From: a virus | Direction: 5' to 3' (one strand) | Length of the DNA stretch: 64,000 bases | Virus record (IMG/VR): IMGVR_UViG_3300045988_128600 | In this document: piece by piece, positions 60,563 through 60,633 of the stretch | How the letters are laid out: the number at the start of each line of letters is the position of its first letter | Numbering within the stretch: position 1 is the first letter of the stretch | Program-made: the position numbers and the translations under genes | Notes under the pieces: generated by a model | The model's input: the letters and a program-made list of their open reading frames with translations, nothing else | Database searches by the model: none | Told to the model about the DNA's origin: nothing

Positions 60563-60633
60563 GTCCGGAAAATGGATTTGAACCATTAACTTAATCTTGA
60601 AGGATTATGACCTAACCTTTAGTCTATTCTGGA
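60563..60633 (-). tRNA. tRNA with anticodon UCA (UGA/UGG-reading, opal-suppressor-like), no encoded CCA
   Basis: Sense TCCAGAA TA GACT AAAGGTTA GGTC A TAATC CTTCAAG GATTA AGTT AATGG TTCAAAT CCATT TTCCGGA C. Preceded by the leader motif GAAAGACCTTTACAGCAA and a promoter copy. Confidence 0.55.

What the first reader, a model, noticed from the sequence alone, without database searches (positions are those of the whole stretch)
60563..60633. Second non-standard decoder: a tRNA with anticodon UCA next to tRNA-Trp, and a tail gene with a single in-frame TGA
A well-formed 71-nt tRNA has anticodon loop CUUCAAG, so it reads UGA (and UGG). It is transcribed from its own consensus promoter and sits immediately upstream of tRNA-Trp(CCA). 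UGA is clearly a stop at several gene junctions here, so general TGA recoding is unlikely. Gene 41119..41608 is a 163-codon frame broken only by one TGA (41416-41418), with a stop-free downstream half. The tRNA could mediate partial read-through, target host UGA decoding, or be a relic.
Basis: partly seen in the sequence, partly recalled or inferred. Interest (0 to 1): 0.7.

Follow-up and report, generated by a model that had tools for sequence, protein, structure and literature searches.

The report
Odd tRNA with six-base anticodon loop
A gut phage that already reads the stop codon TAG as glutamine also carries a conserved tRNA-shaped gene whose anticodon loop is one base too short and spells UCA here but UUA in most relatives; it does not recode TGA across the genome, and the in-frame TGA in the tail gene lies in a broken gene.

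Summary
The tRNA-like gene at 60563-60633 (-) is real: Rfam tRNA scores 46.2 bits and ARAGORN calls it 'tRNA-???'. It encodes no CCA, has an A·C mismatch in the acceptor stem, and has discriminator C.

The same cassette of promoter, leader, tRNA and trailer occurs in all 18 related contigs examined. These come from independent gut assemblies, and the cassette sits in several different flanking contexts. The loop always has 6 bases and takes only two forms: CUUCAA ('UCA', 4 genomes with the window) or AUUUAA ('UUA', 15).

TAG is recoded to Gln. TGA is an ordinary stop, at 15 of 75 gene ends. TGA and TAA stops are the same in UCA-allele and UUA-allele genomes.

The 'tail gene' is not one frame. 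It has an in-frame TAG, a TGA at 41411-41413 that replaces a conserved Trp codon, and a +1 frameshift in a C run. The gene upstream has a 19-nt deletion. All these lesions are identical in three independent assemblies, so this is a decayed tail-fibre cassette.

Best reading: a selected, non-canonical tRNA aimed at the stop codons UGA/UAA that decodes weakly or not at all. A decoy role in tRNA-centred phage-host conflict is a serious rival.

The parts
60676..60704 (-). Sigma-70-type promoter TTGACA-17-TATAAT of the odd tRNA. It belongs to a repeated phage promoter family; an identical copy lies at 38976-39004.
   Evidence: 12/12 match to consensus. 14 such sites in the window against 1.4 expected.
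60634..60675 (-). Leader. AAGACCTT (60650-60657) and TAACT (60634-60638) are complementary to the trailer.
   Evidence: Sequence read directly; fold. Nearly invariant in the 18 related copies.
60563..60633 (-). 71-nt tRNA-like gene. The acceptor stem has 7 pairs including an A4·C mismatch, the discriminator is C, and no CCA is encoded. U8, A14, G18G19 and the TΨC-type T loop are canonical.
60592..60607 (-). Anticodon arm: 5-bp stem UAAUC/GAUUA and a 6-nt loop CUUCAA (60597-60602). 'UCA' is at 60598-60600. Relatives have AUUUAA.
60546..60562 (-). Conserved trailer AAAGTTAAGGTCTTGTT. AGTTA and AAGGTCTT pair with the leader and extend the acceptor helix.
60467..60541 (-). tRNA-Trp(CCA), canonical, with encoded CCA, probably co-transcribed. 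In relatives it is replaced by two other, quite different Trp tRNAs or by a protein gene.
50980..51052 (-). tRNA(CUA) with a normal 7-nt loop. This is the amber decoder that explains the in-frame TAG codons (TAG=Gln).
41119..41608 (-). Disrupted orthologue of an intact 161-aa gene of relatives. Features: in-frame TAG 41501-41503; TGA 41411-41413 in place of TGG; extra C in the run at 41306-41310, which gives a +1 frameshift; first frame ends at TAA 41276-41278.
   Evidence: Identical in three ENA assemblies.
41677..42422 (-). Upstream tail-fibre gene, disrupted by a 19-nt deletion (junction near 42172) relative to L013.

Best explanation
The feature is a real, separately promoted, lineage-specific tRNA gene of a roughly 190-kb human-gut phage that uses TAG=Gln. 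Its body is a well-formed L-shape tRNA, but its anticodon loop has six bases instead of seven.

The loop exists as two alleles that differ at two linked positions: CU[UCA]A in this genome and AU[UUA]A in most relatives. In the register Infernal prefers, the anticodons are complementary to UGA and UAA. These are the two codons that still act as stops in this phage, and both are read by RF2.

Inferred mechanism: host RNA polymerase transcribes the gene from a consensus promoter. The leader and trailer pair and extend the acceptor helix. The RNA is then trimmed and CCA is added, because none is encoded. The resulting tRNA meets UGA (or UAA) in the ribosomal A site only inefficiently. It would act as a weak or conditional suppressor, or as a competitor of release factor, and not as a code-changing tRNA.

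What is shown: the anatomy, the conservation, the two alleles, the absence of TGA or TAA reassignment, and the decayed state of the tail gene. What is inferred: processing, charging and any action on the ribosome.
For: The gene is a tRNA:
- Infernal and ARAGORN both detect it and both show the 6-nt loop. The canonical tertiary-interaction nucleotides can be read directly in the sequence.

Conservation:
- 18 related copies from IMG/VR, independent ENA assemblies and a GTDB 'MAG' carry the cassette in at least 5 upstream and 4 downstream contexts.
- In the six related loci fetched through a neighbouring protein, not through the tRNA sequence, every copy is the same.
- At 4-fold degenerate sites the private-variant frequency is 537/24,778 = 2.2%. 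That predicts about 11 changes in 71 nt across 7 genomes. Outside the loop only A72G is seen, and it keeps the U1·G72 pair.
- Two of the three variable positions lie in the 6-nt loop. Only the two haplotypes C32/C35 and A32/U35 occur.
- All 28 canonical tRNAs of the window have loops of the form YU[NNN]RN, mostly CU[NNN]AA. CU[UCA]A is therefore the simplest register.
- Leader and trailer share an 8-bp and a 5-bp complement that extend the acceptor helix.

It is not a strong suppressor:
- TGA ends 15 of 75 gene ends in the window.
- TGA and TAA stops at orthologous gene ends are the same in UCA-allele and UUA-allele genomes.
- TGA stops lie at RBS/ATGA junctions.
- No in-frame TGA was found in another UCA-allele genome, and no internal in-frame TAA in UUA-allele genomes.
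Against: - No natural decoding tRNA with a six-membered loop is known to me, and a library search found none. Such a loop may not decode at all.
- The register is ambiguous. ARAGORN reads a doublet, UC or UU.
- Discriminator C and the lack of similarity to tRNA-Trp argue against charging with Trp.
- A UAA-reading tRNA would be dangerous in a genome where 80% of stops are TAA.
- The low diversity of the cassette could partly reflect recent spread by recombination between the repeated promoters, and not selection alone.
- Several copies were found by exact-pattern search, which biases that set towards identity.
Confidence: 0.4

Rival explanations
1. The RNA is tRNA-shaped but does not decode. 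It would be a decoy, inhibitor or regulator in the conflict over tRNAs, for example a bait or competitive inhibitor for a host anticodon nuclease or a tRNA-binding defence protein. The two loop alleles would then match different host enzymes.
For: - The window is packed with tRNA and RNA-repair functions: 30 tRNAs, an RNA-ligase-like gene, a Pnk-like kinase, three metallophosphoesterases, RlaP, a TROVE/vWA Ro-like protein and a PhoH/PIN protein.
- The truncated loop and the missing CCA set this gene apart from 26 of the 30 tRNAs.
- A related contig carries a second good tRNA body with an even shorter, 4-nt loop.
- A loop dimorphism that persists across shuffled contexts looks like balanced arms-race variation.
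- The neighbouring tRNA-Trp is replaced by quite different versions in relatives.
- Precedents: anticodon-loop changes in phage tRNAs are proposed to evade nucleases (PMC10264068), and the non-translating tRNAOther of B. cereus is a regulator (PMC3399842).
Against: - No partner protein is identified, and no gene is consistently linked to the cassette.
- Both alleles spelling stop-codon anticodons in the standard register would be a coincidence. The chance is roughly 3/64 for the first allele times 1/3 for the second; this is my own estimate.
- The loops do not copy any of the phage's own tRNA loops.
Confidence: 0.3
2. One reading: the tRNA(UCA) inserts Trp at UGA and so allows partial read-through of the tail gene at 41411-41413. 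This could be an early step towards a second reassignment, TGA=Trp.
For: - The window's TGA replaces a conserved TGG, and the window carries the UCA allele.
- Across related contigs, 5 of the 6 in-frame TGAs sit at conserved Trp codons, three of them in otherwise intact genes.
- No internal in-frame TAA was seen, although the neutral expectation is about twice as many changes to TAA as to TGA: 96.8 against 49.3.
- None of the TGA events is in a UUA-allele contig, which together hold about 800 TGG codons.
- The tRNA lies next to tRNA-Trp in most contexts.
Against: - The tail gene also needs a +1 frameshift, and its neighbour has a 19-nt deletion. Read-through alone gives no full-length product.
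- The other TGA-bearing contigs are partial, so their tRNA allele is unknown. Two of them have raised nonsynonymous/synonymous ratios among private variants: 0.88 and 0.69 against about 0.3, and 0.83 and 0.57 in the enlarged set.
- About 60 kb of another UCA-allele genome (contig 126669) has no in-frame TGA.
- TGG->TGA is the commonest mutational route to TGA (20.6 of 49.3 expected).
- UGA is known to be misread by ordinary tRNA-Trp; this is my own knowledge.
- Discriminator C instead of G73 and the 6-nt loop are unfavourable for TrpRS and for decoding.
Confidence: 0.1
3. A decaying tRNA pseudogene: a former tRNA that lost one loop base and has no function.
For: - The loop is aberrant, the acceptor stem has a mismatch, and no CCA is encoded.
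- The fold is no more stable than shuffled sequence (z = -0.49).
- The gene is confined to one narrow phage lineage: no divergent homologue was found in IMG/VR and none in GenBank phages.
- At least one near-complete relative appears to lack it (contig 132576).
Against: - The body, leader and trailer are nearly invariant in the 18 related copies, while the flanks and neighbouring tRNAs are exchanged.
- The only change in the body preserves a base pair.
- The gene keeps a perfect promoter.
- Its variation is concentrated in the loop as two discrete haplotypes.
Confidence: 0.12
4. A frameshifting tRNA: the six-base loop presents a two-base anticodon (UC or UU, as ARAGORN reads it) and promotes -1 reading. 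That could rescue frameshifted genes such as the tail cassette.
For: - ARAGORN reports anticodon 'tc' or 'tt'.
- CU[UC]AA keeps both the CU and the AA flanks that are typical of this phage's tRNA loops.
- Two frameshifted genes lie in the window.
- Doublet decoding by a normal tRNA has been documented (PMC12202706).
Against: - The two frameshifts need opposite corrections: +1 at the C run, and -1 or +2 at the 19-nt deletion.
- Coding-score and orthologue comparisons turned up no other frameshifted gene in the window; this was not a dedicated search.
- UUA-allele genomes have the intact versions of these genes.
Confidence: 0.05

Closest known systems
Phage-encoded suppressor tRNAs of stop-codon-recoded phages (Sup-CTA, Sup-TCA; crAss-like, Lak, Jade/Sapphire/Agate clades; bioRxiv 10.1101/2021.08.26.457843)
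   Same: It is carried by a low-GC, TAG-recoded gut phage with a large tRNA array. In the standard register the anticodon is complementary to a stop codon. It is transcribed from a standard-code promoter. Predicted TGA and TAA suppressors have been tabulated in such phages.
   Different: The loop has 6 nt. The matching stop codons are not recoded in the genome. The same gene switches between UCA and UUA among close relatives. No aaRS or release-factor 'code-change module' lies beside it.
tRNA-Trp(UCA) of genetic code 4 organisms (Mycoplasmatales, mitochondria)
   Same: The anticodon letters are UCA, the body is AT-rich, and the gene is adjacent to tRNA-Trp(CCA), as in the duplication route to code 4.
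   Different: The sequence is not similar to the neighbouring tRNA-Trp. The discriminator is C, not G. The loop has 6 nt. TGA is not used as a sense codon.
Non-translating pseudo-tRNA regulators, e.g. Bacillus cereus tRNAOther (PMC3399842)
   Same: It is a tRNA-like gene with non-canonical features that is retained and expressed. A function outside decoding is plausible.
   Different: No T-box or other target has been identified here. The carrier is a phage, not a chromosome. The loop size itself is altered.
Phage tRNAs with anticodon-loop changes proposed to evade host anticodon nucleases (PMC10264068; PMC11555353)
   Same: It lies in a large phage tRNA array with RNA-repair genes. Its variation is concentrated in the anticodon loop.
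   Different: Those tRNAs keep 7-nt loops and sense anticodons and replace a host tRNA. This one matches no sense codon in the standard register.
tRNAs with non-standard anticodon loop size (8-nt frameshift suppressors; yeast mitochondrial tRNA-Thr; rare phage cases noted in PMC5009743)
   Same: The anticodon loop is not 7 nt, and the occurrence is natural.
   Different: The known cases are enlarged loops. I found no description of a conserved natural 6-nt loop.

Membership tests
tRNA (Rfam RF00005) | Score at or above the family's gathering threshold, with a full-length cloverleaf | tested here: met
   46.2 bits against 29, model positions 1-71. ARAGORN also detects it.
tRNA (Rfam RF00005) | Seven-nucleotide anticodon loop with U33 and a purine at position 37 | tested here: not met
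   The loop is CUUCAA, 6 nt. Infernal deletes one loop position and ARAGORN reports a 2-base anticodon. All 28 canonical tRNAs of the window have 7 nt.
tRNA (Rfam RF00005) | Conserved tertiary-interaction nucleotides (U8, A14, G18G19, T54-Ψ55-C56, A58) | tested here: met
   Read directly from the sequence.
tRNA (Rfam RF00005) | 3' CCA present or added, and aminoacylation | not testable with these tools
   CCA is not encoded, whereas 26 of the 30 tRNAs here encode it. Addition of CCA and charging need experiments.
Opal suppressor tRNA that enacts TGA recoding | In-frame TGA codons in intact genes of the same genome | tested here: not met
   The window has only one in-frame TGA, and it lies in a gene that also has a frameshift.
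Opal suppressor tRNA that enacts TGA recoding | TGA depleted or absent as a terminator | tested here: not met
   15 of 75 gene ends are TGA. They are conserved in both allele classes and lie at RBS/ATGA junctions.
Opal suppressor tRNA that enacts TGA recoding | Anticodon UCA | tested here: inconclusive
   UCA is present in the Infernal register, but the 6-nt loop leaves the register open. 15 of the 19 copies have UUA instead.
tRNA-Trp (bacterial identity) | Discriminator G73 and similarity to tRNA-Trp | tested here: not met
   The discriminator is C. There is no sequence resemblance to the adjacent Trp tRNA.
tRNA-Sec | Long variable arm and extended acceptor/T helices, about 90 nt or more | tested here: not met
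   The gene is 71 nt with a 4-nt variable region.
tRNA pseudogene | Substitutions accumulating at the neutral rate, with loss of pairing | tested here: not met
   About 11 changes are expected in 7 genomes sampled without bias. One pair-preserving change is seen outside the loop.
Y RNA / other curated structured RNA | Match to an Rfam family other than tRNA | tested here: not met
   Only tRNA matches were found at E<=1 over 60400-60750.

The most novel reading that the evidence does not exclude
A natural tRNA with a six-membered anticodon loop is functional on the ribosome and is kept as two specificities, opal and ochre, in a phage that has already reassigned amber. The phage would then carry RNA tools against all three stop codons. 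The scattered TGG->TGA changes in related genomes would be the first steps of a second reassignment, UGA=Trp.
Probability: 0.12. Interest if true: 0.85.

Novelty: new variant of a known kind. Interest (0 to 1): 0.5.

Why it matters
Suppressor tRNAs are the proposed entry point for genetic-code change in phages. This case is unusual in three ways: the gene is conserved, its loop is one base short, and close relatives switch it between two stop-codon anticodons without any matching change in how the genomes use stop codons.

If it decodes, it shows that a 6-nt loop can work on the ribosome, and it gives a natural system for studying tuned, low-level read-through or competition with release factor. 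If it does not decode, it is a clear example of a phage tRNA mimic. It sits among a 30-tRNA array and an RNA-repair gene set, which points to anti-defence biology.

There is also a practical lesson. An apparent 'anticodon plus in-frame stop' pair can be a coincidence between an odd tRNA and a pseudogene.

Tried and rejected
- Megablast of two window segments against GenBank phages found no relative. A distant blastn of the tRNA gave only a weak tRNA-Glu hit at E=0.09.
- Rfam at a permissive threshold gave no family other than tRNA for the locus.
- The fold energy is no better than shuffled sequence (z = -0.49). This is uninformative for an AT-rich tRNA.
- I searched for divergent homologues with 3'-half and anticodon-arm patterns. 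These returned the same contigs plus one chance hit inside a coding region (L082).
- ARAGORN 'tRNA-SeC(tca)' calls in L064 and L066 lie in what looks like coding sequence and do not fold as a cloverleaf. I rejected them as false positives.
- A six-frame protein comparison to find TGA at sense positions was swamped by nucleotide-level identity in non-coding frames. I replaced it with frame-aware codon comparisons.
- I tried to link the tRNA allele to in-frame TGA. The three TGA-bearing contigs are partial and lack the tRNA region, so the test could not be completed.
- I considered that the frameshift and TGA were assembly errors. I rejected this because three independent Illumina assemblies are identical over the region.
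- I considered that the 61/64-codon ORF from ATG 41304 or TTG 41313 is a separate gene. No purine-rich ribosome-binding site precedes it, and homologues read straight through in a single frame.
- A literature search for six-membered anticodon loops returned nothing.

Full report
**1. What is at the coordinates**

ARAGORN finds 29 tRNA genes on the minus strand between 35.3 and 60.6 kb. The last one, at 60563-60633, is labelled 'tRNA-???, anticodon (tc)'. Rfam's tRNA model matches the same 71 nt full length at 46.2 bits, against a gathering score of 29 and with E=1e-6 for the window. Rfam also adds a 30th tRNA (anticodon CAT) at 57798-57873.

- The sequence is UCCAGAAUAGACUAAAGGUUAGGUCAUAAUCCUUCAAGAUUAAGUUAAUGGUUCAAAUCCAUUUUCCGGAC.
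- It folds as a cloverleaf. The acceptor stem has 7 pairs with one A·C mismatch. The D and T arms are canonical, with U8, A14, G18G19 and a GGUUCAAAUCC T loop. The variable region has 4 nt and the discriminator is C.
- The anticodon stem UAAUC/GAUUA closes a loop of only six bases, CUUCAA.
- Infernal aligns the loop as C32 U33 U34 C35 A36 A37 with one loop position deleted.
- No CCA is encoded, whereas 26 of the 30 tRNAs here encode it.
- All 28 canonical tRNAs of the window have loops of the form YU[NNN]RN, mostly CU[NNN]AA. The odd loop can therefore be read as CU[UCA]A or as CU[UC]AA.
- A perfect TTGACA-17-TATAAT promoter lies at 60676-60704. It belongs to a family of 14 such sites in the window, against 1.4 expected by chance.
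- tRNA-Trp(CCA) follows after 21 nt.
- The leader (AAGACCUU, UAACU) and the trailer (AGUUA, AAGGUCUU) are complementary and extend the acceptor helix in the predicted fold.

**2. The genetic code of the window**

A codon-usage score shows many genes with in-frame TAG and coding signal on both sides, for example 49797..47767 with six TAGs. In orthologue alignments, in-frame TAG pairs mainly with CAA (263) and CAG (70) out of about 570 cases. TAG is therefore read as Gln, and the tRNA(CUA) at 50980-51052 is the decoder.

TGA behaves as a stop.
- It ends 15 of 75 well-scored genes.
- Coding signal collapses after it.
- It sits at ATGA or TGA-N-ATG junctions behind ribosome-binding sites, or inside the TTGACA of the next promoter.

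**3. The 'tail gene'**

The interval 41119..41608 is 490 nt and is not one frame.
- From ATG 41608 the frame meets TAG (41501-41503) and TGA (41411-41413), and ends at TAA 41276-41278.
- The last 64 codons are in the +1 frame.
- Relatives have an intact 161-aa gene (L014, L015) or a two-gene version (L016).

The DNA alignment shows two changes in the window.
- GAA ACA TGG GTG ATT has become GAA ATA TGA ATT ATT, so the TGA replaces a conserved Trp codon.
- A run of four C has become five (41306-41310), which shifts the frame.

The gene just upstream (42422..41677) has a 19-nt deletion relative to L013, which also shifts the frame.

The long genes elsewhere in the window are intact, and the window's ratio of private nonsynonymous to synonymous changes is ordinary (38/111).

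The 1.4-kb region is 100% identical in three independent human-gut assemblies (ERZ918401, ERZ857719, ERZ28637985). The first of these matches the window over 12.9 kb. The lesions are therefore real and inherited. They mark a decayed tail-fibre cassette, not a gene waiting for a single read-through.

**4. Relatives of the tRNA**

Three kinds of search recovered 18 further copies.
- A protein-anchored search.
- Three DNA-pattern searches.
- A GTDB scan. Its hit is a 164-kb contig filed as an 'uncultured Mollicutes' MAG.

What these copies show:
- The cassette, from the -35 box to the end of the trailer, is almost invariant. The sequence on either side falls into at least five upstream and four downstream contexts: three different tRNA-Trp genes or a protein gene.
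- The loop always has 6 nt and has only two forms. CUUCAA occurs in the window, L006, L027 and L033. AUUUAA occurs in the other 15.
- The only other change in the tRNA is A72G, which keeps the U1·G72 pair.
- In the six related loci fetched through the neighbouring ATPase, and so not selected by the tRNA sequence, every copy has this same sequence.
- Private variants at 4-fold degenerate sites occur at 2.2% per site per genome (537/24,778). About 11 changes would be expected in those genomes plus the window.
- Other tRNAs of the array differ by up to 13 positions among the same contigs.
- The gene is confined to this lineage. No diverged copy was found.

**5. Does the allele matter for stop codons?**

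- Stop codons at orthologous gene ends are the same in UCA-allele and UUA-allele genomes. TGA stops persist with UCA and TAA stops persist with UUA.
- Frame-aware comparison of about 150,000 codon cells found no internal in-frame TAA.
- It found only six in-frame TGAs. One is the window's. Two are in the tail gene of contig 131075. Three are in intact genes of contigs 131075, 117464 and 124399.
- Five of the six replace TGG, and all are private to one contig.
- The neutral expectation was 96.8 changes to TAA and 49.3 to TGA, of which 20.6 come from TGG. TGA at Trp codons therefore looks better tolerated than other nonsense changes.
- None of these events is in a UUA-allele contig.
- However, the three contigs are partial and their allele is unknown. 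Two have raised nonsynonymous/synonymous ratios among private variants. Another 60 kb of a UCA-allele genome has no in-frame TGA.
- This signal is suggestive and unresolved.

**6. Interpretation**

The pseudogene reading is contradicted by conservation, by the pair-preserving change and by variation concentrated in the loop. A code-changing suppressor is contradicted by how stop codons are used.

Two readings remain.
- A weakly decoding tRNA aimed at stop codons, or one that competes with release factor. This is supported because both alleles spell anticodons of the two remaining stop codons in the register that fits this phage's loops.
- A tRNA mimic used in tRNA-centred conflict. This is supported by the RNA-repair and Ro-like gene set, by a second tRNA with a 4-nt loop in a relative, and by the turnover of the neighbouring tRNA-Trp.

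I favour the first at 0.4 and put the second at 0.3.

**7. Comparison with the known**

Suppressor tRNAs, including predicted TGA and TAA suppressors, are known in recoded phages (bioRxiv 10.1101/2021.08.26.457843). Non-standard loop sizes are described as very rare (PMC5009743), and I found no report of a conserved six-membered loop. I class this as a new variant of a known kind, with moderate interest.

Noticed in passing
window 36964-37092 (-), with 33721-35256 and 30743-33241: An RAGATH-33 RNA (122.7 bits) lies close to a TROVE/vWA Ro-like gene (DUF2828/DUF7788, PHROG 'RNA-binding protein') and an 832-aa protein with major-vault-protein shoulder and repeat domains. This looks like a possible phage Ro-like or vault-like RNP module.
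   Followed up: no
window 19535-28541 (-): A cluster of RNA-repair-type genes: an RNA-ligase-like gene (24668-26050), a Pnk-like AAA_33 kinase (20080-20610), three metallophosphoesterases, RlaP (27735-28541) and NADAR (22350-22793). PhoH/PIN lies at 13118-14380.
   Followed up: partly
L065 6018-6090 (IMGVR_UViG_3300014039_000059): A second aberrant tRNA in a close relative: a good tRNA body (49.4 bits) with encoded CCA, but an anticodon arm of 5 bp closing a 4-nt loop UCAU. It shares the string CATAATCATTTA with the UUA allele of the odd tRNA.
   Followed up: partly
L039 19272; L041 17372; L040 4101 and 9779; L017 3066 and 3126: Private in-frame TGA codons, almost all replacing conserved TGG, in three partial related contigs (131075, 117464, 124399). 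Two fall in a small gene of unknown function (macro-domain-like by eye only; no Pfam match). The odd-tRNA allele of these contigs could not be determined.
   Followed up: partly
window 60467-60541; L002 4052-4136; L004 (downstream of the odd tRNA): The tRNA-Trp(CCA) downstream of the cassette exists in at least three very different versions. One has 75 nt, one has 85 nt with a long extra arm, and one has an enlarged D region. In some genomes it is absent.
   Followed up: no
window 57689-57762 (-) and 59408-59482 (-): The second tRNA-Asn(GUU) has only 23% G+C and no CCA. tRNA-Thr(AGU) has A instead of U at position 33 and no CCA. Both are conserved in relatives with several differences.
   Followed up: no
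window 57798-57873 (-): A 30th tRNA (anticodon CAU, 39.1 bits) was found by Rfam but not by ARAGORN.
   Followed up: partly
window 60175-60203, 37386-37414, 33280-33310: Several genes end with a TGA that is part of the TTGACA (or TTGATT) -35 box of the next promoter. The promoters are near-identical repeats and could drive the mosaic recombination seen in the tRNA region.
   Followed up: partly
window 60712-63155 (-): A YcaO-domain protein (517 aa) and a 292-aa protein with a weak Peptidase_U32 match lie directly upstream of the odd tRNA in this genome and some relatives, but not in all contexts.
   Followed up: no
L033 (CAMELE010000001.1, 163,874 bp): A contig deposited as an 'uncultured Mollicutes bacterium' MAG, and used as a GTDB species representative, carries this phage's tRNA array. 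It is probably a phage genome.
   Followed up: no
window 41509-41608 and L012-L016 (about 2800-3600): The tail-fibre cassette genes share a conserved 33-aa N-terminus (MKILLQNKNIVLANNSLIS…) joined to unrelated C-terminal bodies in different genomes. This is a swap-in receptor-binding module architecture.
   Followed up: partly
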